DNA from: Bilabrum cf. latius
Taxonomy: Eukaryota
Reading direction: 5' to 3'
Assembly: GCA_965178125.1 (NCBI GenBank)
Contig: OZ237737.1
Coordinates: forward strand, 1,302,001 to 1,366,000
DNA: 64,000 nucleotides
The notes under the pieces were generated by a model. It had not been told where the DNA came from. It did not search any database and was given only the letters and a program-made list of their open reading frames with translations. Below are positions 1 to 56,100 of this stretch, in pieces. Both the position numbers and the translations under genes were made by a program. How positions within the stretch are numbered: the stretch's first letter is position 1; each line of letters starts with the position of its first letter.

Positions 1-3000
1 TCAGGCGGCAGTAGAGGTGCGAGCGGCCAGGCAGGACCGCAGATCGTTGAGTTGGGCCATTCTACGAGTCACGACGGCGTAGCAAGCGTTCCGCATAACC
101 AAGGCGCTGTTCTAAGGACACTTGTCGGGACCCGTGCAAGGCTCCGCAGACTCACTGCTGTTGAGCTTGCCTCCCTCCCCGGCGTATACGGCCGGGTGCT
201 TGGGCTAGGCATGGCTGCCAGAGCGCGACACCTTGGGAAAGTGGGCAGAATCAGCATGATTCTTCGCTCTCTTGGTACTGTGCATTTGTTGCTGCAGCGT
301 GCCAAGTATTGCCACAGGAACGGATCGGCAGCTCGCCTGTTTGCAGTTGGCTTCGCCCTAATGTAGCACAGGAAACGACGCCTGTTCGCAGTTGCCTCTC
401 GCGCAATGGCCCTTGGAGCTTTCGTCGCGGAGCACAGATGGCGCGTTGAGGCCAGAGAGAGGCGAAAGCACGTGCTCCTCAAGAAGGTGAGGGCAATGGG
501 GGCCAAGGCAGCCAAGACACTCATGCAGAGGCGCTAGAAGAAGGCCAAAGGCGGCAAGGCACAGCAGGGGCAGAACCCCGACGACGATTTGCTTGCGTCT
601 CTTGCGCTCACCAAGAATGTCAATTGGGACGTTGTTGACGAGGTGAGGGGTTCACTCTGGGACCAGCACCGCCGCGTGGTGCGCCCCAAGCATAACGCCG
701 ATGGCGTAGAAGCCATGGGCGACTCAGACTCGGACGAGAGGGAGGGAGAGGGGGATAATGGTGCCGGCAGCCGGGATCTGGAGCAGGCAAAGAAATCTGG
801 AATGACCTGGATGGATGCGTTCGGGCTCGACACGGACGGCACTCCGTACGATGTGTCTCCAGATAGCATCCTTCGGAACCTGCTTCGGCAATCTGCAGCG
901 CATTACAGGTCAGAGGCAGCCGCTTCTAACGCCCCTGCGAACGTGACTCCACGAGTACAGCTGGCGGCTGCTGCGTCTCCACCAGACGGAGGTCACATTC
1001 AGCACTCTCGTCGCATGTCGCAGTTCACAAGGTCCGACAACGCAGCTGCCCTCCTGGAACTCAAGCAGCTGCCCACTCCTGCCCGAGGCCAGCGCAGAGG
1101 TGCAGGCGCTACAGGAGGCATGAAGTCGCCGGGGCAGGCCGCGGCAATCGTAGCCCAGACGGCAGACGAGATCACGCAGCTTGTGTCGCACCCTGCCTAG
1201 CTACGGCTCTCTGCGCGCTTGTTTCCTGATCTCATGGACGAGTTCGGAGTTCAGATGAAGGAGTCGAGTTCCCGACGGTCCACATCGGCAGCCGGAGGGG
1301 GCGCCTCCACGCCTCGGGCTGGCCGCAAGAGTGAGGTAGTTAAACGGCTATTTGATGACGGGGATGCCAAGCAAATGGACATAGCGCTCATGCGAATCCT
1401 GCAGCAACACGAAAAGCAAGTAGCAGAAGAGAGTGGCGATACAAGGAAGGCGCGTAGGAAGGGTGCTTCATTCAGCTCGCCGGGCGCGATCGAGACACCA
1501 TACGATTGGATTGCCTGTGCGCTGCAATCTGCGGACTTGGAGGCCTTGGGTGGGATGGAGGTGGTGGAAGCGCTCCTACGGATGCCTTGCTGGGACCGTC
1601 GCCTCGCTGACATCGTCAAGGCCCACGTGGCGAGGCAGCGGAGTCTCACCGCTGATGGCGCGCAGTACGACGTTGGGGCCGATCGCGCATTTGGTCCGGC
1701 GGAGCTGTTCGTCCTGTCTGTTCCCCTCGGAGTGTCGCAGGCGCAACAAAAGCTCAAGTGCTTGCAGTTCGTGGGCGGAGTCTCTGAATCTATTCAGCAC
1801 CTCCACGTCCCAGTGTCACGACTGCAGCGAGCCTGCAACGAGGTACTGCAAAGCCCCAGGCTGGTCGTCCTTCTTCGCGATGTGATGCTCCCAGCCGGCA
1901 ATGCTCTCAACACGCATTCTTCCAAGGCAGCTGCGTCTGGTATCAAGCTGTCGAGCCTGCCTGCTCTTGCCCGGACGCGCAGCAAGTCGAACGTGAGTCT
2001 GCTTCGGTATGTCGCCCAGAAGCTCGTACGGCTCGCCGATTCGGAAGCAGCACAGTCAGCAGGATCACCCGAGTCTGTGCAGCAGCACACTTCCGCTGCT
2101 ACTGCCACCCATGACTCCCACGGAAAGCTACTGGGGTCCCCCTCCGTGCGCCTGCTCACGCATGGTAGGCTGCAGCGCGTGCCCGGCTCGGCATCATCGG
2201 CAGCGGGCATCGCGATGCAGCAGCTCCCTGCTATTGAAGAGAGCACAGCGGAAGATCCAACGTCCCCCGAGGCCCAGGCGCCGCCGCAGACACCCAAGCC
2301 AGGAACACCGCTTGATTCGCCCGCCACGGAACTGCAGCAGCGAGCGACCCCTCGCCAAGGCGCTGGGGACGCGAGGAGGCCGCTCATGAGGCGAACGTCT
2401 TCCATGTGCGCGAGGAAATCGTTTGCCAGCGTGAGCGTGCAGGAGTTGCTTGATCCTGCAGAGGAAATCCCTACAGCCATGACAGTTGGCCGTGTTTCCC
2501 TTGATCAGGTAGTGTCCGACTCGATCTAGCTGCATGGCCAGTGCCAGCAGCACATCGACTTCGTCAAGAGGCTTGTCGAGCTCGAACGGAAGAAAAGGCA
2601 GCACGACTTGGAGATGGCAGAGCGCGAGGATGCGCAGGAGTTTGCTTCGATGATGGACGAGGAGGGAGCCATAGTGCCGGCTACGAGGCACCGGCGCCGA
2701 GTCACGGTGGATCGACGCGACACCCAGAGCACCGCCTCGTTCTCCAGCGTGGTCGAGCCCATGCTGCTGCGTGCTGAAGCTCGCATCTCTCAGCTACTGA
2801 CTATCAGCCTAGAGGCCATTCTTGGCTACGTGGAACTGTGCAGGTACACGTGCGAACTGCCGGCCCTGCCGCAGCAGGCGGCTGAGCTGCGCGAGCTGTC
2901 CCTCTCCGTGGCCATCCGGATCGCCACTCGGCACGGGACCGTGGTGCACCCCGGGCACCCTGCCGTACAGTCTTCCCTCCCCGAGCCAGAGGGCGATGAA

Positions 3001-3306
3001 GATGACTGCGTGACGTGCTCAGAGCTACTAGATTCTGTGCAGTGGTTTGTGCAGGAGTGGGGCAAGGAGGTAGCTTACTGCAAGCTCAGACTAGAGCAGG
3101 AGAAAAGGCAGGCGGCTCTGTCGCAGCAGCGGTCTGGTAGGAGCAGGCGAACTCCGGGAAAGGGTGGACGGAAAGCCGAGCTGCGGGCTTCGCTTGAGCA
3201 TGCTCTAGCTACCAGGCGATTGAGCGATCGTGCCACTCCCCAGCGCAAGCTTCGACGCGAAAACAGCGCCGACTCCATGCAGATGCACGACGGCGACTCT
3301 GATTGA
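1..3306 (+). CDS. FH2-domain formin, 5' partial; one frame if TAG is sense
   Basis: ORFs 52-366, 589-1200, 1219-2529 and 2608-3306 share a frame and are separated only by TAG (364, 535, 1198, 2527); ends TGA. FH2 motifs: KNVNWDVVDEVRGSLWD (lasso) and LQRACNEVLQSPRL...GNALN...GIKLSSLPALARTRS...SLLRY. Confidence 0.85.
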
Positions 3307-3369
3307 ATGAACGAGTCGCAGTATTATTTTTACTTGTGTTTTTGACCTCATCATTACGTTACAAATACC

Positions 3370-6300
3370 TTATCGACCCCGCCCACGCCCTCGCCCGCGC
3401 CCACGCTTGGAGGCCCCACGGAACCCCTGGCTTGCACCAGCAGGCACACCATCACCGTGGCTGTCCATTTCTGGTCCACGAGCAACCACCGCACCAGCTT
3501 CATTCCGGCGGGCCGGCGCCATGCTTGTGACCTCAGCCGCCTTGCGAGTTTGTCGTGACTTCTCTCCCCTTTTGCCACGCCCTCTGCCCCTGCCACTACC
3601 TCTGCCTCGATTCTACCCACTCTGTCTCTTCTGCGAAACCTACTCCCGATACGAAGCACCAGCATGCGCAGCGTCGCTGATGCCGGCGGCTGCCGAAGAC
3701 GGCGGCAAGGCGGGTACTGGCAGCGCCCTCGCGACGCCTCCAAACGCAAGGGCTCCGGAAGCTATCGGGCTCTCAACGGATGGATCCGTGGGAAGCACAC
3801 CGGTGAGCTCTGTCCTATCGGCCGCAATCTCCTGCACAAGTGCAAGGCACGACACTCGAGAGCTAGAATCAGAACCGTCTCCATGCTGCGCCCTGACCGG
3901 GTTACTCGGCCAGCCGTACGTGTGACCGATCCCGTACAGCTCCCGAAGCGTGGACTCGACCATGCTGCTAGCATCGACACCAGTTGGCCAGTCCTCGTTC
4001 TCATAAACAGCAGCGAACAGCTTGCACAGCCGCAGGGCGGCCCGAGCGTCCTCCACCGAATCGTGCGTGGCGCTCTACAGGCCCTCCTGTTCCAGCAGCT
4101 GCGCAGCGAGGAATCGCAAGGGCAGGCTCCTGTCGCCCGGGAGCTTCCAGAGGTGCGCAGAATCCCGCACCTGCCGCGGGGGCACAACGATGCCCAGCGT
4201 CTTGAAATCGTTCTCGAGTCCATGCCCCACGATCGTGCACCCCTGGTCCACGAGCGCCCTCAGCTTCAATAGGACGCTGCGAAGGGGGACGAGCACGCGC
4301 TCTGCGCGGGACTCGTCCAGGTCGGCCGGTGTGACGCCCGAGAATCGCGTGAGGTAGTCCACGATGGGCTCAGTCACGCGGATCCAGTCGTCAAACACCA
4401 CGCTGCCGTCGCTCCGAACCACACTCACCCGTGCCGGTGCAAGCCTAGCAGGTCGCACGACCACTTGCCGCCCATCCGTGTCAAGGCGCGTCTCCTGCAC
4501 CTGCACAGACACAAACTCCGCATCGAGAGCTAGCTCGTCGCCAGGCTGTGGCCACTCCTCGGGTGGGAGATTCAGCTGGCCGGCAGCGACAGGCTTGCCC
4601 CGAGCCGCCGCCGCAGAGAGCTGGGACTGGGAGAGCTCGACACCCCAGGAGAACACGCGCAGCGGGACGGCACTGACGGCGGAACCCGGTGTCACCGAGG
4701 CCCAGGCCTTCTGTAGCACGGGCAAGGAGGCAGCCTGCGGCCCGGACAGGTCGGAGAGCGGGAAGAATGCGCTGCAGTCGGGTGCCTCGTCCTGCAGGGT
4801 GCAGCTAGCGTACAGCATCGTGCATGGGGTCACGGCGGCATGGTTCAAGATGTCCTGCACTGAATGAAAGCCACTCAGTAGGCCGATTCGGCCAGGTGCC
4901 AGCGAGAACCACTGTGACTTTGTGTCAGAGTCGCGAAGGTGCGACAGACCGGCGTCTTCGGGCGCGACCAGGGTGGCGTGCCGCTGATCCACGCGTGCGA
5001 GCACCGCGTAGTGGCCCGAGCTATGCTCGGCCTCGCTCGTCTTGCGCACGCCAGCGGGTGCAGGACCGGTCCCGTCGTCTGCAGTCTCGTCTTCTTGCTC
5101 CGGGGCACCCCTGCGGTTCCAAGCCTCGTCCACGTGGACGACCGCGCCAACTAGGCGGTACTTCCTCCGGGTAGCAAGCTTGAGCCCGTGGGTGCCATGC
5201 GACTCCCGACCGCCGTACGGGTGAATGCCCAGGCCCTCACCCACGTACTGCCCGGCCCATGTCGTTGCAACTCCCCCTGCAGCCACACTAGGCCCAGACG
5301 GGGAGCCACCTGCCTGAAGCCCCCCAGCCTTCGAGTCGGGACACTCCACGCGTACCTCGCCGAAGACCTCCGGCAGCCCACCCGAGGCAGCCGCCCCTTT
5401 GCTGTCGTCGAAGCCCCTGCCGTCTAGGCGCCCGATCGAATCGAGGACACCTCGCGAGCAGCGGCCCTCCGCGACAAACTCCTCCGGAAACCAGCAGCTG
5501 CCAGGCCCGGCATCGCTGTTTCTGATCACGCCGAGGCCCTCTTCGTCGTCGATGCCCGGCAAGAGGACGAGCGTGGTCGGTAGGGACAGGAGCACGCGAG
5601 AGTCCACGATGGGCGCACCCCTGTGCCTAGGAATGGCGCGAGCTCCGCTGATAGCTCGGGACAGCAGGCGAGGGAAGGAGAGACGGCCAGCTGGCCCACT
5701 GGCGCCCCCCTCCACCATGATCTCCCCGTGGACAAAGTCGCTGGGCCTCTCCCTCGCCCGCTGGGCAGATGCCTCGGCGCTTGCCCGAAGGTCCATCGAG
5801 GCGTGGCGCCTGTGCCTGCGGCCCCCCGTCCCGTCCCCCAGCACAGAGAGGGTGCGAGCGCGCAGTGAGTCGAGCAAAGTGGCAGCCAGGGTGCGATCTG
5901 CGGCGCTCGTTGCGCTCTTTGCACTGCCAGGGACAGGGCCTGCCGAGGTCTTGTCTCGGGTCCTGCCAGCCACGTCATCGATGATGTGGCTTAGAGCATA
6001 CTGCGCAAACGTGTGCATTCGCTTTGCCGGTGGCGCGTGGGTAGGGTGCAGGAAGCCGAGGTTTCCGACACCTTTCAGCTGTGCGACAGCTCGCGCCACG
6101 TTGTCAGGGGGCAGGGCCATGTCCTCTGGCGGCAGGGAAGTGACGGCCATGGTGATAGCGTCAAAGAGCAGCCGGGCCTCGCTGGCCAGGCACCTGGGCG
6201 ACGATGACAGGTGCAGCTGCACGCTGCCGCGGATCTCGGGCACAAAGTACAGCAGCTGAAAGAACTGGGCGGTGAGGTCGTTCTCGCCGGATGGCATCAG

Positions 6301-9300
6301 CGGGACGATCGGGATCTGCGCGGATGCACCCGTTCCAGATCCAGACCCACCGCCACCGCTGCTGCCGTCAACCTACTCGACAAGGCTCTGGTTGTCGCGC
6401 GACCAATCCACCATCCAGATAGGCCTACCTCCGATTACACCCCTGCCACCTGCTGCCCCAGTCTCGAGGCGACCCCCCACGCGCTCGCGAGAGGCCGCAG
6501 CCGCGCGCACGCCCTTTGGGGCTGGGACACGGACCGCCCAGGGAGGCACGCCAAGCCTGCCTGCGGAGCCGTCGTCGCGCGGCTCGATTCCAAGCAGCAT
6601 CAGCAGCTCGTCGCCTGTGACGTGGGGCCCAATCGCCTCAACGGTCGCCAGGTCGTCCTGCAGCTTCGAGTCCTCCTCCGTCTCGAGCTCCGACTGGGAC
6701 GTGTCCAGCCCGCCGGCGGACACGGCGCTCACCGCACGGCCCCGCCGCGCCGCCCGGCGCGACCTGTCCGCGATCCTCGCGAGCATTCGCAAAGCCAGGG
6801 CGCGCGAGAGCACCTTGGGCTTCGAGGCGGCAGCAGCGGCTGCTGCCGCACCGGCTCCGCCGTCTGCCTTGGGTTCCGCCCTCGATGGGTCGCTGGCAGA
6901 CCGCACTACCTCCGTGACGGGAGGCACTGCCCCCAGGTAGACTGCTTGATCGATCCAACGGTTGCTGTACAGCAGGGCGGACGGGTCGATGCCCTGTGCG
7001 TCCTTCTCGTCAGACCAGCCCTGTACTAGCAGGGAGCGAATCGTGTCTGCAGGGGTGCCCTTGCCGACCATGCCAGACGCAGCGGCCAGAGGCAGCGGGC
7101 CTATGAGTCCTGCGCCCGGAGTTCGTTCCATGGGGGCAGGGACGGGCAGGGAGCCCGAGGCAACGGCTTGCTGGTCCACCTTCCGCGCCAAGGGCACGCG
7201 GGGTACCCTCCTCGACGACCGGTCCGACTCCAGCACCGGGTGCAGGTGGCAGCTGGCCCGATCGGCGCCGGTGATGGAAGGCTAGCCCGAGAACGCGCCG
7301 GCTGGCTGACCCCCGAAGACGGATTGAGCTGATTGCCTGCCGCTGTAGCCACCGTCCCTCCAGCTACCGGCCTGCGCATCTGAATGGCCTTCGAACCCTT
7401 GCTGGCCGGCCCCGGCCCTGCGAGGCGGCGCCCTCGGGGGCAAAAAGAACGACAGCAGCTTTGTGGTATGTGCCCCCGGCCCGCCAACCCCGCGCCCACC
7501 AGCTCCGCGCCCCACGAAGCCCCTCCCCTGGGGCGGCCCAGCGCCCACATCCGGCAGCACTGAGTGGTGCGCCGGGCCCTGGCTGCGTGCCAGGCTACGA
7601 GCATCACCCAGCACGACGGCGAGTGAAGCGATCCCCCAGTCGTCCACGTCCACGGAATCGCCGCTCCCAATCTTCGCCCCGCTCTCTGCCCTCGCGCCCT
7701 CCAGCAGTGCCTGCGTCTCGCCCTGCGCCTGCCCGTCTCCCTGGTCCCCGTCCCCCAGCGGCGCGTGCCGCCTGACGGCGACAGGCGGGTCTGTGGCGCC
7801 GATCTGGGCGCCCCTCCCTAGAGCCTTGCAAGACGACAGGCTCACCTGCATGCCCCTGCCCTGCAAGGCCTGCGCCACCCACGGCGCCACGAAGGCCACG
7901 GTCAGTCCCAGTGAGGCCACGGGGGACAGCCCCCTCATGATCTCCACAGCGGTGCCCCTGTCCCCTGCCGCGTCAAGAGCGCGGGCCTCTATGCGGGCTC
8001 GCTCCCGGCGCTCGACCGTGTCCAGCTCCACCGCGCCTCCCATGATTGCCACCGGCAGCAGCCCGGGACCCTTTCCCTCCAGCACCACGTGCGCTGCGAT
8101 GAGGTCTCCGGAGGGTGCCACGGCCATGCCCGCCAGCCTGCGGGACACACCCCGTGCGGCCCTCGTCGGGTCGAACGAATTCATCTCGCCGTCCTCCACT
8201 CCGGCGGCGCGCGCCAGATCTAGCGCTTGCTCCGTCTGCAAAGAGCTCGAATCCACCGACGTCGCCGCTGCCTTGTGAACCTGACCCTCGATGCATGTGG
8301 CACCAAAGGTGCTTAGGTCGTCTCGGCTGGGCCCACCGAACCCGCCCCCGCCCACGGCACTGGCCTGCGCAGCGGCAGCGGCTTGCGGATTCGACAGGTC
8401 GATCACTTGCGCCCTGCCTCCTCGAAACCCAACCACGACTGCCGCGCCCGCAGCCGCACCGCCCCGGCGCCCGCGCCTACCCGGCCCGCCCGTCATGTGG
8501 CTCGATGCCGACCTTGCAGCAGGGGGCAGCTCCTTCAGCGCCACGGGAGCCGCTTCCGCCAAATAGGAATGGACGATCTTCTGACGCACGGCCCACGTGT
8601 CTGCGCCGGTCAGTTCCCTGTCGAATGCGGCGCAGCTGACCCCTCTCGGGCTAGCCATGTCTCGGGGGGTGGCGAGCGGCACCAGGGCCACTTGCCTGTG
8701 CATGCGGACATCAAAGACCCGGAGGGCCGTGTCAGCCTGCGGCAGAGCCCGTGCACCGTCCTTGCTGGTATGTGATGAGTGAGGTGGCTCGCTGCGCAGG
8801 CCGATGGTCATGAGGTAGTCGCCCGAGGTGGCCATGGCTAGGCAGCCTCCCGAGTGTCCCTCCAGTGAGGCGATTCGCTCTGTCTGGCGCAGGTTGGGGT
8901 CGAACATGGAGATCGCAGGGCCCTCAGCGCTTCCTGCAGCGAGGATGCGGCTCCTGAGGCCGCCGCCCGCGAGGAACGAAGCGTCGTGGTTGTCGGGGCC
9001 GGCTGGCACACGGGAGAGCACGCTCGGGGCGTACGAGCCGGGCCCGGGTCCAGGCCCGTGCTGCTGCTCGGAAGAATCGCCGAGGATGCCTAGGCTGGGA
9101 AGCATCGTGGCAGCGGGATTATCGTCTCCAGTTGTTGATGCCGCGGTGGCGGCGGATCGTGCGGCCCAACCGAGGGCGCGCCGCACGGTCGAGCCGCGAT
9201 GCTTGCTCTCTCGTGCCAAGTCGAGGAGACACAGACCACCGAGTCCAACTCCACCAACAACAATGCGTTCTGCGGATGGCACGTAGGCTGTTAGCCCGTC

Positions 9301-9757
9301 ACCGTACGAGAGCCTTGCCTCGAGCGAACTGCCTATCGCAGCCATCGATCGCAGTTGATGGTGCTGCGTCGCATCAGCGGCTATGGATGCTGCCGGCACA
9401 TGCGCCCGCAGCACGCAACCACGATCATGCAAACGAATTGAATCATCTGCGAGCGACACGATGCCCCTGCGGTACAAAAAAAATGTGCAACAGCGCCAGC
9501 ATGCGGTAATGTGGCATGCAACAGAGCAAGTGAACTTAGGACCACAAGTCTACTTACTCATCCACAGCAACAATTGAGGAAATGGCGCTGAACGCCCCCT
9601 AGCACGCAGCAGAGGTGCGCAGGGATGGGAGCTCAAAAGCTGCAAGAGCGCCGATTGAATTGGCTGCCCACAGTCGCTCAAACTTAGAGTCAAACTCCAC
9701 AGCGGTAGGATTTCTCAGTAATTCTGTTGCTCCGGAATCGAGCCATGGTAAGTCCAT
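3370..9757 (-). CDS. PAN2: PAN2 poly(A) nuclease catalytic subunit (WD40, UCH-like and DEDDh exonuclease domains)
   Basis: Exon 1 9558-9757 (VEFDSKFERLWAANSIG), intron 9467-9557, then one frame through ORFs 7282-9477, 6373-7236, 4075-6297 and 3640-4056. TAGs at 9599, 7282, 6373, 4075, 3640 and 3613; ends TAA at 3370-3372. Motifs ALDAEFV, IVDYLTRFSG, IVGHGLENDF, HDSVEDARAAL. Confidence 0.9.
9467..9557 (-). other. Spliceosomal intron of PAN2
   Basis: GTAAG...TTTTTTTTGTACCGCAG; removal joins VAVD-E-GIVSL in frame. Confidence 0.75.
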
Positions 9758-9854
9758 GGATTCGCGACTCTGAAACGCCCGCTGGCCTATAGCAGAAATA
9801 AATGGATTGACGAAGGCATGTTCTTCCTTTCCGTAAACTAAAACTAGTTTTGAA

Positions 9855-9862
9855 TATTATAA
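9855..9862 (+). promoter_or_regulatory. TATA-like element upstream of 5S rRNA gene
   Basis: TATTATAA in an AT-rich patch about 16-23 nt before the predicted 5S start. Confidence 0.35.
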
Positions 9863-9877
9863 TACCATTGTGTGGTT

Positions 9878-9996
9878 GTCTTCGTTCATATGTGATTGGA
9901 CCCGCCTGAGCCCTGCCGACCTCAGAAGCTAAGCAATCACCAGTCGGGCCAGTACTAGCGTGGGTGACCAGCTGGGAAGCCCCGATGATGAAGGCC
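9878..9996 (+). rRNA. 5S rRNA gene, single dispersed copy
   Basis: About 119 nt. Terminal helix GTCTTCGTT/GATGAAGGC; helix GTGATTG/CAATCAC; box A-like GAAGCTAAGC; AGTACTAGCGTGGGTGACCAGCTGGGAA matches the eukaryotic loop E/box C region; followed by an oligo-T run. Confidence 0.9.
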
Positions 9997-9999
9997 TCA

Positions 10000-10004
10000 T
10001 TTTT
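10000..10004 (+). terminator. RNA polymerase III oligo-T terminator
   Basis: TTTTT a few nt after the 5S 3' end. Confidence 0.7.
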
Positions 10005-10093
10005 GTTCCAGGTGCTTTGATATCTCTTTCCTCGATATCGTCTGGTACAGCTTCAACTTTTTGGAACACTGAATCTATGCTATATGGAAATGT

Positions 10094-12937
10094 TCAGAAC
10101 CTGTGAGCACCCTTGGTTGCAGTGCCTCTCCGCCCTTTTTTCCCCAACCTTCGCCCGCGGCCGCCGGCCACTCCTTTTGCTCTGGCACCCCCACCGACCT
10201 GCTTGGCCATCTCAGCGTTCAAGCCGGCCACAAGCGCATCCATACTGTGCTCTCCAGCGCCAGCGCCCTCTGGCTGGCTCTTCCTCCCTTCGCTCTAGCC
10301 CTCCTCATCACCCTCGCCCTCGCCATCATCGCCTGCCCCGTATTCGTACCCTCCCACAAAGGTCTGTTCCCCGGCCCACGGCACTGTCCCACTGGCACCA
10401 TCCTAGTGCTCAGCACCGCCATGCAATGCACCATAGATTCCCCCCTCCCCCTGCCCCTGCCCCTAACCCCCTCGCTGCTGCTGCTGGTCTTCGATCGGCA
10501 GCGCGGGCGGAGGGGGAGGTGGCCTGGACTCAGCCACCTTGGACTCGGGAGCAGACGGCAGCCTGTTGAGCCCTCGGGTACTTGAACTCGCAGGACCAGC
10601 GCCAGCGCCAGCGCCTCGTCCGCGCCTCCGGTCACCCCCACCACCCCTGCCCCCGCTGCCCCGGGCCGCGTATCCCCCCCCCGCGCCCGCCCCATGAGCC
10701 CCGCCTAGACGCCCCTGCACAGCGTACCCGTTCCTGGCCGCATCTGCACTACCATGCGGTGCACCCAACCCCGCGCCGGTCCCTAGGACGTCCGGGCCGT
10801 TGACCTCCGCCGCGTCGATGACCAGGTCAAGGGCAGCGAGTCTGGCCTGCAGCTTGTGGCTCCTCAGCCGCTCGCGGTTGGCCTCCTGGCCCTTGCGCTG
10901 GGCAGCGACTCGGAGCCGCTCGCGGTCACTCGTCATCTCACCGACCTCGACCCGGAGCCTCTGCAGCGATTTCTCCGTGACCTCCCTGTAGAGCTCGAAG
11001 TCGGCCACCTGGTTCCGCAGCCTCTTGATCTCGTCATGTTGGGAGGCCAGCTTGGACTGCATGCCCGGCGGCACGCGCACAGGCTGCGCGAGCTTGGCCC
11101 GCAGCTGCTCCTGCTCCTCGAGCAACTGCTCCATTCTGCGCTCCATTTCCGCGGCTCGGGCCTCCGCAGCATCGGCGCGGGCGGCATGTCTCTGGGTCTC
11201 TGCTTTCTGCGCCTCGAGGTCGCCCAGGATGGAGTCGAGCCACGCGGAGGAACCAGCCCGCTTGAGCGTCTTGCCACCGCCCTGTTGCTGATGAATCTGC
11301 TGCATTGGCTGGCCAAGCGATCGGCCGATGCTCTGCGCAGGTGCTCCCGGTGCATTGAACTGCTCCGCAGACTGCACCCCGCTCCCCGACGCAGGTGCAG
11401 CTTCGTGGGCATCGGCTCCAGCATAGGGGGCCGCAAACCCAATGCCTGACCCGGGCTCTGACGATTTTCCGCCCGTGCCCGCACCCGGGCTCGCGTCCTC
11501 GCCGTCCTCGAACCGTCGCACGGTAGGCAGGTGCCCGGTGGCCGCTGTTGCCGCCCGCCCCAAGGATGACTCCGCCAGCTCCCGCTCGAGACCGCTCTCT
11601 TGTTCCCCGGGCACCAAATTTCCATCCTCGTCGACCATCATCCTTCCCTTCTCACCGCCCGCCGCCCTGACCCCTGCCTCCTCGCCCTCCTCCTCTGCCT
11701 CCTCCTCCTCCTCCTCACCGCCGTCCTCTGCGGAGGACTCTCTGTCGTCGCGCAGCAGGGCACGGATCCGGGAGGAGAAGCGGAGGGTCGCGACCATCGC
11801 CGGCTGGTCGGCGAGCGCACTCGTCACACAGCCCACGAAGAGGGCTTTCTGCAGCCGCAGCAGCGGGCGCCGGAGCAGCTGCGTGACGACAGAGCCGGCG
11901 AAGGGCGCGGATGGCTCCGCCCGCTCCAGGGAGGAGAGCACACGCTGCAGGCTTCGAACCCACGGAAGCACGCCATCCTCCTGGGTGCCTTCGTCCTCCT
12001 CGAAAATAGGATCCACGGCGGACGCGTCGCCCATGCGGACAAGGCACAGCTGGGAGGTGAGCGTCGGTCGCCGGTCGGGCTCGCTGCCATCGCTGCTGCC
12101 GTCGCCAGCGGCTGCCGCACCGCTCCTCCCACCCTTTCCGCGGGAAGATTTCGCCGCTGCAGTTGCAGTGTACGCGTGGACTGGTGTCTGCAGCAGCGTG
12201 AGGCAGACGACGTCGTGCGGCACGGGATCGGCATCCGGATCGACGGGAAGCCCCTCCGCGTCGCCTTGCTCTGCCTCTTCGCTCGGGGGATAGACGCACT
12301 GCGCCAGCTATTCTACGTCTTCTTCAGCCTGTACCTAGACTTCCCACAGACCAGGCACGACCGGACCTAGCATGGGGTCGTCGCGAAGTGAAAGCGCTGG
12401 CGCTTGTGGAGCGTCGGATCCGCCGCCGGCCGAGCTCGAGGCTCCCGCGCCCGGCCCACCGGACGCTGTTGCCCTCAAAATATCGCGAATTTTGTCTCGT
12501 CTGATCTGGTACCATGCCATTCGCACGACTGGGCGCCACGCGTGCGCATCTTTGCGGGTTCCTAGCCTGCGAAAGAGCTCCCCGGCACACTGGGAGAGCA
12601 ACGACCTGGCCCCACCAGGACGAGCAGATGGTGGACCATGGGCTAGAGCATATTTTCCTGGCCCATCCTCACCCATTAGGACAACGCTTGCGCTGTGGCC
12701 TTCGCACACTGCTGCAACTGCTGAAGAAATGTCACTGTGCAATGCCCCTTGCCGCGCTGCCACGGCCGTCACTGTGGCGTCATAATCAAACCGGACGACT
12801 TCGTTTATTCTAGTTCCTGGCGCGAACACCGCCTGGCGCTCATCGCTCATCATCATCCCGCCTTCGTCCTCGCCCCTGGACACTAGCACAACTCGTCCCA
12901 ATCGCAGCGGGTCCGCATCGGCTCCTGCTTTCGGCAT
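10094..12937 (-). CDS. Divergent kinesin-motor-like protein with C-terminal coiled coil
   Basis: ORFs 12335-12937 and 10463-12223 plus tail in one frame; TAGs at 12335, 12308, 10463, 10403 and 10295; ends TGA. Kinesin-like segments VRFDYDATV, VCEGHSASVVLMGEDGPGKY, VRMAWYQIRRDKIRDIL, LRDDPMLGPVVPGLWEV, SVVTQLL. Confidence 0.7.
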
Positions 12938-13528
12938 ATTTTACTATCCACAGAATCTAAACGATGTGTGTGAATGCAGTCTTGCCGATCGTCTTTTGCG
13001 TCCTTTCCTGGGATCTGGCAACCAGCCGTTGACTTCTGTGTCGATTTCAGTCCAAACTGGTCGCAAACGGCTCCGAATCGAGGGTCGACACTCCAATCCA
13101 ATGATACCCAAATGCAAATAGAATGCCTTGTCACAACTATACAGGGGACGTAGCTCAATCTCCAGCTCTTGGTTTGATTAGTGTAAGGAGCTGCATGCGG
13201 CACCCTCGCCGTCCACCGGCAGCCAATCCGCTACGGCCCATGCCCACCTCACCGACGCGTTGTTTTGGCCACTGTCTGTCCTTCCAGCACCTCCAAGCAC
13301 CTCATAGCATTTCAGATCTCTCTGGTATACCAACTTCCCTGCCTTCTCGCAGGTGTCCACTGTCCAGTCTGCTGGCGGACTAGATAATGCAGCTCAATGA
13401 ATAGATCCAGGATTGCACCCCTCCGCACTCACTCCGCAGATCCGATCGCACCGCAAGTCAAATCACTTCGTCGCATATCCTTGTACGTAGCCAGAACAAG
13501 CACCTGAAAGCAGGAGACTGCCCAGGCC

Positions 13529-15259
13529 TCAGTGCATCCTTGATGAATGCGTTTTGAGACTGCCTGCCTGCCCGAAGCGCTTGCCGCACACGCTGCACTC
13601 GTGCTTGCGTTCCCCTAGATGCACAGTGGTCATGTGCGTCTTGAGATGGCCCGCCACCCCGAAGCGCTTGCCGCACACGCTGCACTCGTGCTTGCGCTCC
13701 CCCAGATGCACAGTGGTCATGTGCGTCTTGAGACTGCTTGCATGCCCGAAGCGCTTGCCGCACACGCTGCACTCGTGCTTGCGCTCCCCCAGATGCACAG
13801 TGGTCATGTGCTTCTTGAGACTGCTTGCATGCCCGAAGCGCTTGCCGCACACGCCGCACTCGTGCTTGCGCTCCCCCAGATGCACAGTGGTCATGTGCTT
13901 CTTGAGACTGCTTGCCACCCCGAAGCGTCTGCCGCACACGCCGCACTCGTGCTTGCGCTCCCCCAGATGCACAGTGGTCATGTGCGTCTTGAGACTGCTT
14001 GCCTGCCCGAAGCGCTTGCCGCACACGCTGCACTCGTGCTTGCGCTCCCCCAGATGCACAGTGGTCATGTGCGTCTTGAGATGGCCCGCCACCCCGAAGC
14101 GTCTGCCGCACACGCTGCACTCGTGCTTGCGCTCCCCCAGATGCACAGTGGTCATGTGCGTCTTGAGACTGCCTGCCTGCCCGAAGCGCTTGCCGCACAC
14201 GCCGCACTCGTGCTTGCGCTCCCCCAGATGCACAGTGGTCATGTGCGTCTTGAGACTGCTTGCCTGCCCGAAGCGCTTGCCGCACACGCTGCACTCGTGC
14301 TTGCGCTCCCCCAGATGCACAGTGGTCATGTGCTTCTTGAGATTGCCTGCCACCCCGAAGCGCTTGCCGCACACGCCGCACTCGTGCTTGCGCTCCCCCA
14401 GATGCACAGTAGTCATGTGCTTCTTGAGATTGCCTGCCTGCCCGAAGCGCTTGCCGCACACGCTGCACTCGTGCTTGCGCTCCCCCAGATGCACAGTGGT
14501 CATGTGCGTCTTGAGACTGCCTGCCTCCCCGAAGCGTCTGCCGCACACGCTGCACTCGTGCTTGCGCTCCCCCAGATGCACAGTGGTCATGTGCGTCTTG
14601 AGACTGCTTGCCCGCCCGAAGCGCTTGCCGCACACGCTGCACTCGTGCTTGCGCTCCCCCAGATGCACAGTGGTCATGTGCGTCTTGAGATGGCCTGCCA
14701 CCCCGAAGCGCTTGCCGCACACGCCGCACTCGTGCTTGCGCTCCCCCAGATGCACAGTGGTCATGTGCGTCTTGAGACTGCCTGCCTGCCCGAAGCGCTT
14801 GCCGCACACGCCGCACTCGTGCTTGCGCTCCCCCAGATGCACAGTGGCACGTGTGTGTGTACCTGTGTCTGCCCGTCGCCTCTTTGCGCCTGCACCACCC
14901 GAGGAGCTCTTCGATGGTGCAGATGCTTCGTCCTTGCTTCTGCAGCGCTTTCGACCTCGGAGGGCAGATCCAGAATTGCTTGCTCCCTCTGCCGTCTGCA
15001 ACAGGTTTCCAGGTGATCCTACGAAACGGCCCGGGCTGCTACCGGCTGCCTCAGGTCCCAATATACTCGACTCGGGAATGGACTGCCTTATTGCCTGCCT
15101 ACGGCTGCCGCTGGCACGCGTGTTGCGCTGAGAAAATGCTGGTTCCATAGCGCTCCGTGAGTGTGCGTTCAAGGTGCTGTCGCTGTCACTGTCACTGCAG
15201 CTAGATTCACCCGCTAAATCGATCACTGCCGATGGGCACTACTTCGCCATCCTGGCCAT
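13529..15259 (-). CDS. C2H2 zinc-finger array protein with 15 fingers
   Basis: 15 units of LGERKHEC[G/S]VCG[K/R]RFGxAxxLKxHMTTVH. The first ATGs (15259 or 15250) are in frame only through a TAG at 15239-15241; ends TGA. Basic NLS-like segments (RGRKRCR, AKRRR). Confidence 0.9.
13553..14848. repeat. 87-bp coding minisatellite, about 15 copies
   Basis: Near-identical units such as gcactcgtgcttgcgctcccccagatgcacagtggtcatgtgc; one unit equals 29 codons. Confidence 0.95.
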
Positions 15260-15575
15260 CAACTTAAAATTGCTCGAGTTTCCACTTATAGCCAGCCTAT
15301 TATAGGAATTATGTTGGACCAAGGCAGACTCAGGAGATTTGACTGCAAGCTTTTCAATTCCCCCTATCGTCTCAGATCTTTTTCGTCCCCGTGATCTATG
15401 CTTCTGCAGACGAGGCAAATTTAGGTGACCCGTTCGATAGGAGAAATGAATCTAGACTAGTCTATGCTCTTCGGGCAAGGTTGCGCGACCGTGGGGTCCA
15501 CCCTTCCATGTGTGACGAGTGACAGCACGAAAGAACAGCGAACTGCAACTCGGTCAGATTGCGAGCCCAGTTGAG

Positions 15576-16682: not shown

Positions 16683-16840
16683 TCCGGCTCGCTCGGAGCT
16701 GGACTGAACCAGAAACAAACTTTGACTTCACACGAGATGTCTGTTCATTCCAATGATAGCCGGTGGTGCTTCAGCGGGCCCCCTCTTTTGAAAGCCGCTG
16801 CAGTCGGCAGCAGGCAATCCTCGTTGCACGCAGCAGGCAG

Positions 16841-18452
16841 TCATTGCCGAGCGTCGCCAGCACCCGCCGATGCCTTGCCCCCCGCTGCCGATGGCAGCCA
16901 GTCCACGGGTGTTTCCAGCACTTTAAGGAGCTTTGCCTCGGGACTGCCTGCCTCCGGCTTGTGCATGTACTCCCACCTCGCGGTCAGCGGCATAGACATG
17001 AGGATGGATTCCACTCGGCTGCCCGGCGTGTGCAGGCCGAACTTGGTGCCCCTGTCGTGCACGAGGTTGAACTCGACATAGCGTCCGCGCCTCAGCTGCT
17101 GCCATTCCTTCTCCTCCTCCGTGAAATCCTCCTCCTTGCGCAAATCCACGATGGGAGCGTAAGAATCCACGAAGGCCTCCGCGCAGCTCCTCACGAACGG
17201 GAAACCGTCGGCCATCGCGCTGCTGCCCGCCTCGGGCGCTCCCTCGCCAGCCGTCGGTGCCATGCCGCTTCCGCTGTCTCCCTTCGCAGCAGCACCCGCC
17301 CCAGCCTTGCCCCCATCCACCCTTTCCGCCCCCGCCCAGTCCACGCTCCCGTCCGGCTGGATGGGCGCTCTGCCCTCCGCGAAATCGTCAAAGAAGATCC
17401 CGCCAATCCCCCTGGCCTCGTTCCGGTGCGTGTTGCGGAAATACTAGTCACACCACTTCTTGAAGGCGGGGTAGAGCTGCTCGCCGTGCTGCTCGCAGGC
17501 CGACTGCACGGTCCTGTGGAAGTGCACCGCGTCAGCCTCGAACAGGTAGGCGGGGGTGAGGTCCTGGCCGCCACCGTACCACCACCTGAGGTACTGCTGC
17601 CCCGTTGCGGGGTCGGTCTCCAGCACCTGGAACATACGGTAGTTGGCGTGTGCCGTGGGTGCCTTCGGGTTCCTAGGATGGATGACGAGGCTGACCCCGC
17701 AGGCGTAGAAGGGTACCTTGGGAAGGGGCTGGCCGGGCTTTGGCGCGGCAGGCATGGGCAAGTTCTTCCCGCGGGAGTTCATCATGCGTACCGCTGCTGG
17801 CGGCAGGTGCCCGTGGACGATGGAGACGCCCACGCCCGCCTTCTCGAAGACCTTGCCGTCCTGGAGGACGCGGCTGCGGCCGCCGCCGCCCTCCTTGCGG
17901 GACCAGGTGTCTTCGCGAAACTTGCCGACGCCGTCGACGCGCTCCATGGCCGCGCAAATTTGGTCCTGCACGCGCATTGTGAGCTCTTCCATTTGTTCCA
18001 TTCGCTTGTTGCGCGGGATCCCACTGGAGGCCGGGCCTCGTGCCCACTTCGGAAGTGCGTCGGACGAGAAGGCATCCCCGATCGCAGTGGCGGATGCTGC
18101 TGTTGGAGATGTCGCCCTTGCTCCCTCTGCCTGCGCGATAGGTCTAGCACCGGCTTGGCAGGGCGTGTTCGCGCGGATGACAAGGATGTGACAGGGCGGA
18201 GATCTCTGAGCTACACACAAGTATCAGTCGGTCGATACTAAGACTTTGCAAGGAGCGCATGCATTAACACGGCTTATTGTAACACCGCACCCGGCAGGCC
18301 AATCTCACCGTGGATTCGCGGGATTCATCGTGACATGCCGATGATGCGAGCCCCACACCGCCGGCGGCTAGCAGTGCCATTACCGGAGCACGCCCCGCAA
18401 ACTGACGTGCCGCAGTAGACAGAGGGGCCCACAATTTCCTAAAGCTTGACAT
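16841..18452 (-). CDS. CPOX: Oxygen-dependent coproporphyrinogen III oxidase
   Basis: [66 protein letters not shown] (TAG 17444), [23 protein letters not shown]; ends TGA. Putative exon 1 18309-18452 resembles a targeting presequence. Confidence 0.93.
18131..18308 (-). other. Probable intron of CPOX
   Basis: GTGAG donor after codon 48 and a phase-0 GCAG acceptor; acceptor choice is uncertain. Confidence 0.5.
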
Positions 18453-53190: not shown

Positions 53191-56100
53191 TCAGCCGACC
53201 GACCCCTTGGTCTCCAAGAGGTCCAGGACGCGATCCAGCTTTGACTCGAGGCGATCCATCCTCTCCTCCAGCTTGCTCCTGCCTCGCCTCGCGCGCTCTG
53301 CCCCGCGCTCCGCCTCCACACGAGCCGCGTGCGCCGCACGGGCAAACATCGCGGCCTGCTCCGCGCGCACCACACGCACCAGCTGCTGCATCTCGTACGA
53401 CTGCTTGCCCAGCTGCGCGCTCAGCATCAGCACATCCTTCAGCTCCACGCTGCGCCCGATCTCCAGCAGCAGCCCAGTCACAAACTCGTACGGCAGGTCC
53501 CTGTCGGTGCGGTAGTTGCGGGCAGCCATCATGGACTGCAGCACTTTGACGGAGAGGGCCTGCATGTCGTTCGCGTGCAAGGGGTGCTGCAGGAGAACCC
53601 TGGGCATGTAGTCCATGCGGAGGGCCTTGATGCGGCGGCGACGCTCCTCACGGATCATCTCTTCATTCTACTGCTCCCGCCCGATCATTGACAGCGACAC
53701 TCCAATGCTGTCAGTGTCGGCAGATTGCTTGCTGTCCGAGCTATCCTTACCTGCCAAGTTGGGCTCATGCCCGGACCCAGCAGCTGGCGCACTCCTCGTC
53801 GACTGATGAACTGCGATGGCCTCTACGGCAGTGGGCTGACCATCCGATCCTGTAGGTCTGAACATGGCACGCATTGCTGGATCGATGTTGGGCTGCGGGT
53901 TTATTGGTATAGGCCGGAATCCTTCCAATGGTGCGCTGACACTGCTGGTTGGTGGCCCATGGTCGGGTCGCACACTATCTGCTGCAGGAGGCTTGGCTTG
54001 ATTGGCTGCTGAGGCAGAGGTTGAACTTGCATCCGATGCCGCTAGCCTGCTAGCTGACGCTTCGAGCTTCTGTGGCGATGCGAGCCCGTCGCTGCGTACT
54101 GCTGGCAGTGCTTCATCAACTTCTCCAGAATCGGAGTTCACGAGCCGAATGGCCCGCTCCACGTCCTGCACCTGCGCCGCGAAGCCCTCGTACCGAGCCA
54201 GCACCTGCTCCTCCTCCATGTCGTCCACCACATTGAACAGCTTGCGGTCCATCTGGGATAGCACGGATCCCAGCACTCTCCTGTCTGAGTTCTCGATGAG
54301 ATAGGATATGTCAAGCAGCACGTCCTCGCTGACGTGCAGAAGGCGGAAGAGTTCCGCCATGTTGGACTGCTTTGCATCCGCATTCTATGGCGTCTCCTTC
54401 AATTCTTCCTTCTTTTCCGGAGCAGGCTTTGGTTTCAAACTTGGCGCAGCAAGCTTGCCCAACAAGCTCTGCCGGGGGGCCGCGCTGCGAGTCCTGTCGT
54501 GCTATTTAGCAGGAACTAGCCCACCGAGTGTTGGCTGCTGGCCATAACTACTACTTGATTGCTGTACCGCAACAGAACCTTTCTGCGTTGGCTCTAACGG
54601 TCTGGAATCTGCGTCGGCCGACGCCGCAGCCGGTGCATGGACGCGCTGCACGCGGCCATCGCTCATCAAATCGCTGTCACAAACGATGTCCTCTAGTCCA
54701 ATACCATCATCTGATGGAGCACCCAATTTCATGAGTGGGTCCAACAGTGTGCAGTGGCCGCTGTCCAGCTTCTCCCGGGCCTGCAAGTTGTTCTCCGCGG
54801 CCTTGGCAAACGCTGCTGCGTCAGCTGAATGCCCGTCATCGTCCTCGTCGTACTGTTTGACGACGTATGCATGGACTGCTCGACGTAGCTCTTCGCTCGA
54901 GATCCCGTTCGAGTCATCGTCATCGATGTCTTTGAAAGTCTAGATGATCTGGGTGCGGCGCTTCCGACGGCTCTCCAGTCCTTCCAGCTCGCGGCGTTGC
55001 CTGTTGGCTCGCGAAGTTTCCATCAGCTTGTCCGAAAAAAGCCTGCGAATACAAAGAAGCAGTGTATTTCACTATCACTCTCAAGCTTGGTAGCTCTATC
55101 GCGCGGTGAGGAGGACAAACTGTCACGGCCTGTGCCAACGATTGCAGTTGCGGCGGACTCACCCGATCACAAGGTTCAAGATACCGAAGGCTGCGAAAAA
55201 GTCAGGGAACGTGTGGATGGACTGGAAGTTTATTTCATCCCACATGGTGCACTTGTTCTGCGATAGGACAGACCCTCCGACCCGCTGCACAACGAAGCCG
55301 TCCTCACCGGTAAGAAGAACGTATGACACGAAGAGCGACACCGTCCACCCCTGCACCTCCCAGATCGGACGCGCCAAAGCCATAGACCAAGACTCCAGCG
55401 ACATGATCTAGAACAGCGAGTACATCGACCGAGGCACCGTGCCGTAGAAGGCCCGCACATCCTCCTCCTCCGGCCGCCCGATCCACACCTCTGCCTTTCC
55501 AACCGCCTCGGTGAAGATGAGGGCATACACGTAGATGAGCACGAGCAGGAGCATGGACGCCCAGAACAGACCGGAGAGGGAGGCAATCTGCGAAATAGTT
55601 GCATGAATGGGTTGGACCAGTTATAATGAGGCAGTCGTCGGCGAAGGCCTGCCTCGGGCTGGGCGCACCTCGAGGCACAGCATGCTCCGGCGGAGCGCAG
55701 GACAAGGCAGTTTGGCGCTGCCGAGCTCACGAATCCCATCAGCAGGTTGTTCAGCTCGTGAAAGAACTGCGAGGTACGAGAAAGGCATTCAATTTCAGGT
55801 GGAAACCGGGCAGTTGCGTGAGCAGGCCTGGGCTGCTTCACCGCGAAGCTATGCAGTACACTGTGGCATGATGTTGCTGCGGCTCCTCGGTCACACTTAC
55901 CTGTAGTGTCCGCCCCACGCGACCCACGCGCAGCAGCCGATTTGCCAAGAACACGCGCGGGATCGCCCCACCTGCTGATTCAAGGGTCGTACTCACGATC
56001 AGCCCGACCGCTGATACGAAGGCAATGAAGAAGTCGAAGACGTCCCACCCGGAGCTGAAGTACACTGACGGCGTCAGGGCCACGATCTTCACAATGGCCT

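What the first reader, a model, noticed from the sequence alone, without database searches (positions are those of the whole stretch)
3300..3375. Evidence that UAA remains a stop, so the code is not ciliate-type UAR=Gln
Seen: PAN2 ends ...GRGRGRGR-TAA (3370-3372), and the sequence turns abruptly AT-rich for the 63 nt before the convergent formin TGA. Reading through this TAA meets no TGA before entering the formin CDS. The other 15 genes end in TGA. Inference: UAA and UAG are decoupled, requiring a CUA-anticodon tRNA and an eRF1 that discriminates the third base. This rests on one TAA-ending gene in the window.
Basis: partly seen in the sequence, partly recalled or inferred. Interest (0 to 1): 0.7.

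Follow-up and report, generated by a model that had tools for sequence, protein, structure and literature searches.

The report
TAG means glutamine; TAA still stops
This GC-rich protist genome reads the stop codon TAG as glutamine but keeps TAA (and mostly TGA) as stops, a rare split code already known from a few other protists, here seen in what looks like another lineage.

Summary
On the minus strand PAN2 ends ...GRGRGRGR-TAA at 3370-3372. A 63-nt spacer of 33% G+C follows (flanks 60-69%), up to the formin TGA at 3304-3306. The other 15 of my 16 gene ORFs end in TGA.

The reading is supported, and by more than the one gene it rested on:
- **TAA is avoided in frame.** In 18,218 codons TAG is in frame 75 times and TAA and TGA never. 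TAA occurs 35 and 40 times in the two other frames. If TAA were a synonym of TAG, 17-22 would be expected (P about 1e-8).
- **No circularity.** ORFs bounded by TGA alone (19,156 codons) hold four in-frame TAA. One is the PAN2 end; three lie upstream of start ATGs.
- **TAG is glutamine.** The PAN2 TAG column is Q in 136 of 146 homologs, and TAG pairs with CAG between paralogs.

This is a table-15-type code (Iotanema, Protocruzia, Hartmannula, Trochilia). It differs in that TGA, not TAA, is the main stop and the genome is GC-rich and non-ciliate.

Termination at TAA itself rests on one gene plus weak RNA-contig support. The tRNA and eRF1 could not be examined. The scan met this code before, in giant-virus windows (e1-5483482).

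The parts
3370..3372 (-). TAA that ends the PAN2 reading frame; the only in-frame TAA at a gene end in the window
   Evidence: Preceded by GRGRGRGR codons and followed by the AT-rich spacer.
3373..9465 (-). PAN2 main coding exon: UCH-like middle part and DEDDh exonuclease domain, with an RG-rich tail
   Evidence: Pfam RNase_T 3.7e-10. PDB PAN2 chains 2.4e-42 to 4.6e-36. 4,402 library hits. The upstream exon is joined across intron 9466-9556.
3307..3369 (.). 63-nt AT-rich spacer between the convergent PAN2 and formin genes (both 3' UTRs)
   Evidence: G+C 0.333 against 0.60 and 0.69 in the flanks. Read in the PAN2 frame, 6 of 21 codons end in G or C (list), against GC3 0.73 for PAN2. RNA-like contigs of X5 stop at 3338 and 3392 while DNA contig X1 spans 1-9904.
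3304..3306 (+). TGA stop of the formin gene
   Evidence: FH2 domain 9.6e-21.
1..3303 (+). Formin (FH2) coding region, cut by the window start; holds 4 in-frame TAG
4075..4077 (-). In-frame TAG in the PAN2 exonuclease domain, at a column that is Gln in nearly all homologs
   Evidence: Q in human, fungal and yeast PAN2 structures. Q in 136 of 146 library homologs that cover the site. Q in the 78%-identical fragment P0257. The 99%-identical public fragment P0242 stops just before it. Coordinates checked.
55408..55410 (-). In-frame TAG in an ion-channel pore exon; the window paralog has CAG at the same place inside a long identical block
   Evidence: paralog exon ORFs 55159-55620 and 59344-59754.
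17444..17446 (-). In-frame TAG in coproporphyrinogen oxidase, at a variable acidic or polar column
   Evidence: The column is D 58, E 41, K 10, N 6, S 2, R 1, T 1, Q 1 in 120 homologs.
3019..3021 (-). First TGA met if the PAN2 TAA were read through (117 codons on, antisense to formin)

Best explanation
The window is nuclear DNA of a GC-rich, compact, intron-poor eukaryote. Its cytoplasmic code reads UAG as glutamine while UGA (dominant) and UAA (minor) remain termination codons. This is an NCBI table-15-type code. The TAA at 3370-3372 is the true stop of PAN2, and both convergent mRNAs end inside the 63-nt AT-rich spacer.

Shown: TAG is sense and corresponds to Gln. TAA and TGA are absent in frame from about 18,000 codons. 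One gene ends at TAA.

Inferred, from established decoding rules and from Panek et al. 2017: a tRNA-Gln with anticodon CUA, which pairs with UAG but not UAA, and an eRF1 that has lost or weakened UAG recognition while keeping UAA and UGA.
For: - TAG is sense. ORFs reach 3,722 aa only when TAG is read through, and 75 in-frame TAG lie in 16 genes.
- TAG is Gln. The PAN2 column is Q in 136 of 146 homologs. The 78%-identical relative P0257 has Q there. TAG pairs with CAG at 5 of 13 aligned paralog sites, including the two in strongly conserved blocks.
- TAA is not sense. The frame table gives TAA 0/35/40, TAG 75/118/108 and TGA 0/286/280 in 18,218 codons. The expectation of 16.7-21.9 gives P(0) of 6e-8 to 3e-10.
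- The census is not circular. TGA-only ORFs (19,156 codons) hold 4 in-frame TAA: the PAN2 end, two upstream of the kinesin ATG and one upstream of the cupin ATG.
- TAA works as an end. There is an abrupt fall in G+C after it. Read-through would run 117 codons, antisense through formin.
- RNA-like contigs from two studies stop at 3392-3401, and X5's formin contig stops at 3338, while the DNA contig goes on.
- The share of TAA among stops (1 of 16) matches composition (about 1.9 of 16 expected).
Against: - Only one gene in the window ends in TAA. Its C-terminal about 180 residues are unconserved and low in complexity (one search aligns only to query residue 297 of 476), so homology does not fix the C-terminus.
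- The listed RNA contigs do not cover 3339-3391, so the stop codon and 3' UTR are not shown as transcribed (906 pieces were not listed).
- The CPOX TAG column favours D/E (99 of 120) and holds Q once.
- Eight of the 13 aligned paralog TAG sites pair with codons other than CAG, mostly in poorly aligned stretches.
- No tRNA, no eRF1 and no further DNA of this organism could be examined.
- Absence of in-frame TAA shows avoidance, not termination as such.
Confidence: 0.8

Rival explanations
1. Both UAG and UAA mean Gln (ciliate/hexamitin type, table 6) and UGA is the only stop. TAA is merely rare because the genome is GC-rich, and PAN2 is translated through the TAA.
For: TGA ends 15 of 16 genes. 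TAA is rare everywhere in this 62% G+C window.
Against: A-ending codons are not that rare: CAA 125, GAA 263, AAA 134. That predicts 17-22 in-frame TAA where 0 are seen. Read-through of PAN2 would add 21 AT-rich codons and then 96 codons antisense to formin. RNA-like contigs do not bridge the spacer.
Confidence: 0.04
2. UAA is ambiguous or nearly unassigned: very rarely sense, or poorly terminated, with its meaning set by context as for UAA in Blastocrithidia or the Condylostoma-type codes. On this view the PAN2 TAA says little about a dedicated stop.
For: Only one terminal TAA is available. The window cannot tell a dedicated stop from a codon avoided in frame. Such ambiguous codes exist (listings and abstract starts of PMC12153298 and PMC4967479).
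Against: There is no in-frame TAA at all in 18,218 codons. In the known ambiguous codes the codon is common in frame (recalled, not checked here). TGA, the partner codon in those codes, is also never in frame.
Confidence: 0.08
3. The PAN2 3' end is mis-modelled (an unseen terminal intron, or an end made elsewhere), so the window holds no proven TAA-terminated gene. The depletion of in-frame TAA stands, but its function as a stop is not demonstrated here.
For: Introns exist in this genome. The listed RNA contigs stop at 3392-3401, before the TAA. The tail is not conserved. GT dinucleotides lie near the TAA.
Against: The two confirmed donors are GTAAGT and GTGAGA. The GT sites around the TAA (GTCGAT, GTATTT) fit poorly, and the better one lies after the TAA. 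The contig break at 3392-3401 coincides with a repeat-type false joint, 3400 to 19909, in the DNA run, so it probably reflects the low-complexity GR-coding repeat. The composition changes exactly at the TAA.
Confidence: 0.08

Closest known systems
Iotanema spirale (Fornicata) nuclear code: UAG=Gln, UAA and UGA stops (Panek et al. 2017, PMC5304391; abstract and passages read)
   Same: UAG alone is reassigned, to glutamine, and UAA is kept as a terminator. The same inferred mechanism applies: tRNA-Gln(CUA) and an altered eRF1.
   Different: In Iotanema UAA is the primary stop (abstract). Here TGA ends 15 of 16 genes. Iotanema is an anaerobic metamonad known from a transcriptome. This organism has an oxygen-dependent coproporphyrinogen oxidase and a GC-rich compact genome, and its CPOX falls in a non-opisthokont clade near oomycete and dinoflagellate sequences.
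Ciliates with table-15-type codes: Hartmannula sinica, Trochilia petrani, Protocruzia tuzeti (PMC11687900; passages read)
   Same: UAG=Gln with UAA and UGA not reassigned. UAG is distributed along gene bodies like a Gln codon.
   Different: There, 93.5-100% of C-terminal alignments end at UAA. Here TGA dominates. The window shows none of the features I recall for ciliate macronuclear DNA (AT-richness, small chromosomes); that comparison is recalled, not tested.
Rhizarian exLh (UAG=Leu) and Scotinosphaera (UAG=Ser), both with UAA as stop (PMC5304391 abstract; PMC11687900 discussion passage)
   Same: UAG and UAA are decoupled in a nuclear genome.
   Different: A different amino acid. Here the conserved PAN2 column and the paralog pairs point to Gln.
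Ciliate / Hexamita / Dasycladacean code (NCBI table 6; UAR=Gln). Also reported for Amoeboaphelidium and Streblomastix (PMC11687900 passage)
   Same: UAG=Gln and TGA as a stop.
   Different: TAA is a Gln codon there. Here in-frame TAA is 0 of 18,218 codons and one gene ends on it.
Soil giant-virus windows with TAG=Gln and TAA/TGA stops, noted earlier in this scan (e1-5483482, e1-5483516)
   Same: The same three-way assignment of the stop codons.
   Different: Those are viral DNA with an unknown host. This is cellular nuclear DNA (5S rRNA gene, spliceosomal introns). No link between them was tested.

Membership tests
Table-15-type nuclear code (UAG=Gln; UAA and UGA stop) | UAG occurs in frame inside conserved protein-coding genes | tested here: met
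   75 in-frame TAG in 16 genes, 15 of which hold at least one. ORFs reach 3,722 aa only if TAG is read.
Table-15-type nuclear code (UAG=Gln; UAA and UGA stop) | UAG corresponds to glutamine | tested here: met
   The PAN2 column is Q in 136 of 146 homologs and the relative P0257 has Q. TAG pairs with CAG in paralogs at 5 of 13 aligned sites, both conserved-block sites among them. Against: the CPOX column is D/E in 99 of 120 and Q in 1. That site is variable.
Table-15-type nuclear code (UAG=Gln; UAA and UGA stop) | UAA is not used as a sense codon | tested here: met
   0 in-frame TAA in 18,218 codons against 35 and 40 off frame, with 16.7-21.9 expected. The 4 in-frame TAA of the TGA-only ORFs all lie outside the ATG-to-end span. 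This covers the window only.
Table-15-type nuclear code (UAG=Gln; UAA and UGA stop) | UAA terminates genes | tested here: inconclusive
   One gene (PAN2) ends at TAA, with a composition break and no plausible read-through. RNA contigs give only a weak hint. The C-terminus is not fixed by homology.
Table-15-type nuclear code (UAG=Gln; UAA and UGA stop) | UGA terminates genes and is not sense | tested here: met
   15 of 16 ORFs end in TGA and there are 0 in-frame TGA against 286 and 280 off frame. The CPOX alignment ends 17 residues before its TGA.
Table-15-type nuclear code (UAG=Gln; UAA and UGA stop) | A tRNA-Gln with anticodon CUA, and no UAA-reading tRNA | not testable with these tools
   No tRNA gene in the window by ARAGORN or Rfam. 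No genome is held.
Table-15-type nuclear code (UAG=Gln; UAA and UGA stop) | eRF1 N-domain changes that weaken UAG recognition | not testable with these tools
   No eRF1 among the window's genes and no other DNA of the organism was reachable.
Ciliate-type code (table 6; UAA and UAG both Gln) | In-frame UAA in conserved genes, used like UAG | tested here: not met
   0 in-frame TAA against 75 TAG.
Ambiguous stop/sense codes (Condylostoma, Blastocrithidia types) | UGA and/or UAA common in frame and also used as stops | tested here: not met
   TGA and TAA are both 0 in frame in 18,218 codons.

The most novel reading that the evidence does not exclude
This is a so far undescribed eukaryotic lineage: GC-rich, compact, aerobic, non-ciliate, with SAR-like affinities. 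It would have reassigned UAG to Gln on its own and, unlike every described UAG-only case, terminate almost always at UGA, with UAA a shrinking minor stop. Public gene calls for it are already truncated at TAG (P0242). Such an organism would also be the kind of host that the scan's TAG=Gln giant viruses need.
Probability: 0.45. Interest if true: 0.6.

Novelty: new member of a known kind. Interest (0 to 1): 0.45.

Why it matters
UAG and UAA almost always change meaning together. Only a handful of nuclear genomes are known to split them (PMC5304391, PMC11687900).

- **Another case.** A further, probably independent, instance in a GC-rich genome where UGA rather than UAA is the working stop would widen the conditions under which the split can evolve.
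- **A genome to test in.** It offers a genome, not just a transcriptome, in which the predicted tRNA-Gln(CUA) and eRF1 changes could be looked for.
- **Annotation.** Genes of this organism called with the standard code are cut at every TAG; the fragments P0241-P0243 already sit in public protein sets. Calling them with table 6 would wrongly read through TAA stops. Table 15 is the right choice.

Tried and rejected
- **tRNA genes.** None found by ARAGORN. Rfam at gathering scores found only a 5S rRNA.
- **More DNA of the organism or a near relative.** A metagenome scan with the acyl-CoA synthetase gave 80 pattern matches, none confirmed. None is the relative itself, and L001-L010 were not used further.
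- **C-terminal 215 residues of PAN2 against the protein collection.** No hit at E<=1e-5, so conservation of the C-terminus could not be compared.
- **RNA runs.** No listed holder is on record as RNA. X5, X7 and X8 behave as RNA because they skip two GT-AG introns that DNA run X1 keeps. The listed contigs do not cover 3339-3391, so the 3' ends are not mapped. That uncovered stretch is no evidence either way.
- **PDB alignments.** Those of the kinesins, formin and kinase gave no TAG at a reliably aligned conserved column.
- **Codon-usage log-odds for the PAN2 read-through.** The score was -0.18 per codon, against +0.42 for the last 100 PAN2 codons but only +0.04 for all of PAN2. It discriminates too weakly in antisense frame 0 and was dropped.
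- **Bacterial promoter/terminator scan of 3200-3500.** Nothing found, and it is not relevant to a eukaryote.
- **TAG=Glu.** Considered because of the CPOX column, and rejected on the PAN2 column (E in 1 of 146) and the CAG paralog pairs.
- **Lineage guesses not supported by any search.** Trypanosomatid, green alga, aphelid, labyrinthulomycete and Amoebophrya were considered. A taxid from a truncated label of a homolog led nowhere.
- **Literature.** Six searches found no paper describing a UAG-only code in a GC-rich non-ciliate, non-fornicate, non-rhizarian lineage. PMC6733595 was opened and proved irrelevant. Subscription-only papers are not in the library.
- **Earlier notes of this scan.** None for this genome or for look-alike stretches.
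Full report
**What is at the coordinates**

The window is 62% G+C. It carries large, mostly uninterrupted reading frames only if TAG is read as sense. With the three standard stops the longest ORF is 1,371 aa; with TGA+TAA as stops it is 3,722 aa.

I accepted sixteen gene-sized ORFs. Thirteen have Pfam support: FH2 formin, PAN2-type exonuclease, two kinesins, a C2H2 array, an RRM protein, coproporphyrinogen oxidase, an RCC1 protein, a cupin/JmjC protein, an LRR giant, a CDPK-like kinase, an acyl-CoA synthetase and an RGS-like protein. One has a PAN_4 hit just below the Pfam cutoff. Two are window paralogs without Pfam hits.

On the minus strand the PAN2 frame (3370-9714) ends in GRGRGRGR followed by TAA at 3370-3372. 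The convergent formin frame ends TGA at 3304-3306. The 63 nt between them have G+C 0.333, against 0.60 and 0.69 in the adjoining 100 nt. Reading past the TAA, the next TGA is 117 codons away, at 3019-3021, in antisense frame 0 of formin. The other 15 ORFs end in TGA.

**It is cellular, nuclear and transcribed**

A 5S rRNA gene lies at 9878-9996.

Runs X1-X4 hold the stretch completely. A DNA contig of X1 spans 1-9904. Runs X5, X7 and X8 come from two other studies. Their contigs skip 91 nt (9466-9556) and/or 178 nt (18130-18307), which X1 keeps. On the minus strand these read GTAAGT...CAG and GTGAGA...CAG. They are spliceosomal introns of PAN2 and of the coproporphyrinogen oxidase gene, and X5, X7 and X8 behave as RNA.

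The kinase gene also has an intron. Its glycine-loop and VAIK-like exon lies in ORF 40232-40840 and is followed by a GTAAGT. The two unnamed paralogs have upstream ion-channel exons. The ORF-based models are therefore approximate. At least one of the 75 in-frame TAG (PAN2 ORF codon 55) is intronic.

**What TAG means**

- **The best single site is the PAN2 TAG at 4075-4077.** It sits just before the HDS-x-EDA exonuclease motif, where human, Chaetomium-type and yeast PAN2 structures have Q.
- **Homologs agree.** I searched the last 1,015 residues of PAN2 against 1.84 billion representatives. Of the best 150, 146 gave a BLASTP alignment over the site: Q 136, G 4, N 2, and S, D, E, C once each.
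- **Near relatives agree.** The hits include fragments 93-99% identical to the window (P0241-P0243) and 73-78% identical (P0248, P0257). P0242 ends exactly before the TAG, as a standard-code gene caller would make it. The 78% relative P0257 reads Q there.
- **Paralogs in conserved blocks agree.** A TAG in an ion-channel pore exon (55408-55410) faces CAG in the other copy, within a block identical over some 60 residues. A second exon pair shows another TAG/CAG pair.
- **The C-terminal parts of the paralogs are noisier.** Eleven TAG positions align to a codon: CAG 3, GAC 2, and GTC, AAA, GAA, TCA, CGC, GAG once each. Only the TAG/CAG pair at codons 43/40 lies in a well-conserved block.
- **One result goes against Gln.** The single TAG of coproporphyrinogen oxidase (17444-17446) falls on a column that is D 58, E 41, K 10, N 6, S 2, R 1, T 1, Q 1 in 120 homologs. 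That column is variable and polar, and Q is a conservative replacement there. E at the nearly invariant Q of PAN2 would not be conservative.

I take TAG=Gln as settled at about 95%.

**What TAA means**

From the first ATG to the codon before the stop, the 16 ORFs hold 18,218 codons. Counts by frame (0, 1, 2) are as follows:

| Triplet | Frame 0 | Frame 1 | Frame 2 |
|---|---|---|---|
| TAA | 0 | 35 | 40 |
| TAG | 75 | 118 | 108 |
| TGA | 0 | 286 | 280 |

A-ending codons are not scarce: CAA:CAG is 125:563, GAA:GAG 263:901 and AAA:AAG 134:502. A TAA synonymous with TAG should therefore appear 16.7-21.9 times. The Poisson probability of none is 6e-8 to 3e-10.

These ORFs were delimited with TAA as a stop, so I repeated the count on ORFs delimited by TGA alone. 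In 19,156 codons there are 83 TAG and four TAA. The four are the PAN2 end (codon 2115 of 2231), two upstream of the kinesin ATG (codons 72 and 151; ATG at 153) and one upstream of the cupin ATG (codon 25; ATG at 29). The kinesin motor domain starts about 8 residues after that ATG (Pfam position 30 at residue 38), so no upstream extension is needed.

TAA is thus excluded from coding sequence just as TGA is, and quite unlike TAG. One TAA among 16 stops is what composition predicts: the off-frame TGA:TAA ratio of 566:75 gives about 1.9 of 16.

**Does TAA actually terminate?**

This is the weaker half.

For it:
- The composition break falls exactly at the TAA.
- The 21 spacer codons in the PAN2 frame end in G or C only 6 times (one search list), against GC3 0.73 for PAN2.
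- Read-through would require a 96-codon antisense overlap with formin.
- The X5 contig that carries formin stops at 3338. The X5 PAN2 contig starts at 3392 and an X7 contig starts at 3401, while the DNA contig goes on.

The break at 3392-3401 probably reflects the low-complexity GR-coding repeat, because the DNA run shows a repeat-type false joint, 3400 to 19909. The stop codon itself is not covered by a listed RNA piece.

Homology does not fix the PAN2 C-terminus. The alignment to human PAN2 ends about 180 residues before the TAA. A search for the tail in relatives found nothing.

I see no credible splice donor that would remove the TAA. The GT sites nearby (GTCGAT, GTATTT) fit the two confirmed donors poorly, and the better of them lies after the TAA.

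**Mechanism**

Shown: UAG is decoded as Gln, and UAA and UGA are excluded from frames.

Inferred from wobble rules and stated by Panek et al. for Iotanema (PMC5304391, passages read): only a CUA anticodon reads UAG without reading UAA, so a tRNA-Gln(CUA) is expected. It is probably a one-base derivative of tRNA-Gln(CUG). An eRF1 with weakened UAG recognition is also expected. Neither can be tested here: no tRNA is in the window, no eRF1, no genome, and two metagenome scans found no DNA of the organism.

**Comparison with what is known**

Decoupled UAG and UAA were first described in 2017: the rhizarian exLh (UAG=Leu) and Iotanema spirale (UAG=Gln) (PMC5304391, abstract and passages). The discussion of PMC11687900 (passages read) adds Protocruzia tuzeti, Hartmannula sinica and Trochilia petrani (UAG=Gln), TARA ciliate genomes (UAG=Leu), Scotinosphaera (UAG=Ser), and a ciliate with UAA=Lys and UAG=Glu (PMC10553269, listing only).

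The assignment here is that of NCBI table 15. The differences are these:
- TGA, not TAA, is the main stop: 15 of 16 here. UAA is the primary stop in Iotanema and accounts for 93.5-100% of C-terminal alignments in the two ciliates.
- The genome is GC-rich, compact and intron-poor. Spacers are as short as 32-87 nt.
- The organism is aerobic in its haem synthesis.
- In a quick CPOX tree it sits with unnamed environmental sequences in a non-opisthokont clade near oomycete and dinoflagellate sequences. The named PAN2 hits are oomycete. This placement is weak: single genes, 40-60% identity.

Six literature searches found no description of such a code in such a lineage. The library lacks most subscription papers, and I saw no supplements.

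The scan itself met the same code before, in two soil giant-virus windows (e1-5483482, e1-5483516). No link to them was tested.

**Verdict**

The finding is a sound piece of code diagnosis, not a new kind of code: a new member of a known kind, possibly an independent origin with an unusual UGA-dominant stop usage. My confidence is about 0.95 that TAA is not a sense codon here, and about 0.8 for the full statement that it is a functional stop in a table-15-type code.

Noticed in passing
window 9878-9996 (+): A complete 5S rRNA gene (Rfam 81.4 bits) lies alone between PAN2 and a kinesin gene. In DNA run X1 the matching 119-nt contig has depth 1,134 against about 26 around it, so the gene is highly multi-copy or dispersed.
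   Followed up: partly
window 13529-15260 (-): An array of about 14 near-identical 28-residue C2H2 zinc fingers. Read depth here is 20-40 times that of the neighbours in all four runs (about 1,000 against 26 in X1), and one C/T variant is seen at 14434. The unit is therefore repeated many times in the genome or is collapsed in the assembly.
   Followed up: no
window 53191-56242 (-) and 56812-60501 (-): Two tandem paralogous multi-exon genes, each with ion-channel pore exons and a long C-terminal part. Several blocks of 60-150 residues are identical between the copies while the linkers are unrelated. This suggests recent duplication or gene conversion.
   Followed up: partly
window 9466-9556 and 18130-18307 (-), about 40520-40700 (+): Short GT-AG introns of 91 and 178 nt are confirmed by RNA-like contigs. 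A third is inferred in the kinase gene from a GTAAGT after the N-lobe exon. All lie near 5' ends of genes; otherwise the genes are intronless for up to 11 kb.
   Followed up: partly
window 28685-28737 and 43258-43344: Very short spacers between tandem genes. There are 32 nt from the cupin TGA to the next ORF (53 nt to its first ATG). About 87 nt separate the kinase TGA from the ATG of a secreted PAN_4 protein in the same frame.
   Followed up: no
public proteins P0241, P0242, P0243 (93-99% identical to window 3373-6417, minus strand): Public protein collections already hold pieces of this organism's PAN2, or a near strain's, called with the standard code. P0242 is cut exactly at the TAG. Gene sets of this organism in public data are therefore probably fragmented throughout.
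   Followed up: partly
window 28670-28684 (+): The cupin/JmjC gene has a TAG four codons before its TGA. The window cannot say whether TAG is ever also used as a stop.
   Followed up: no
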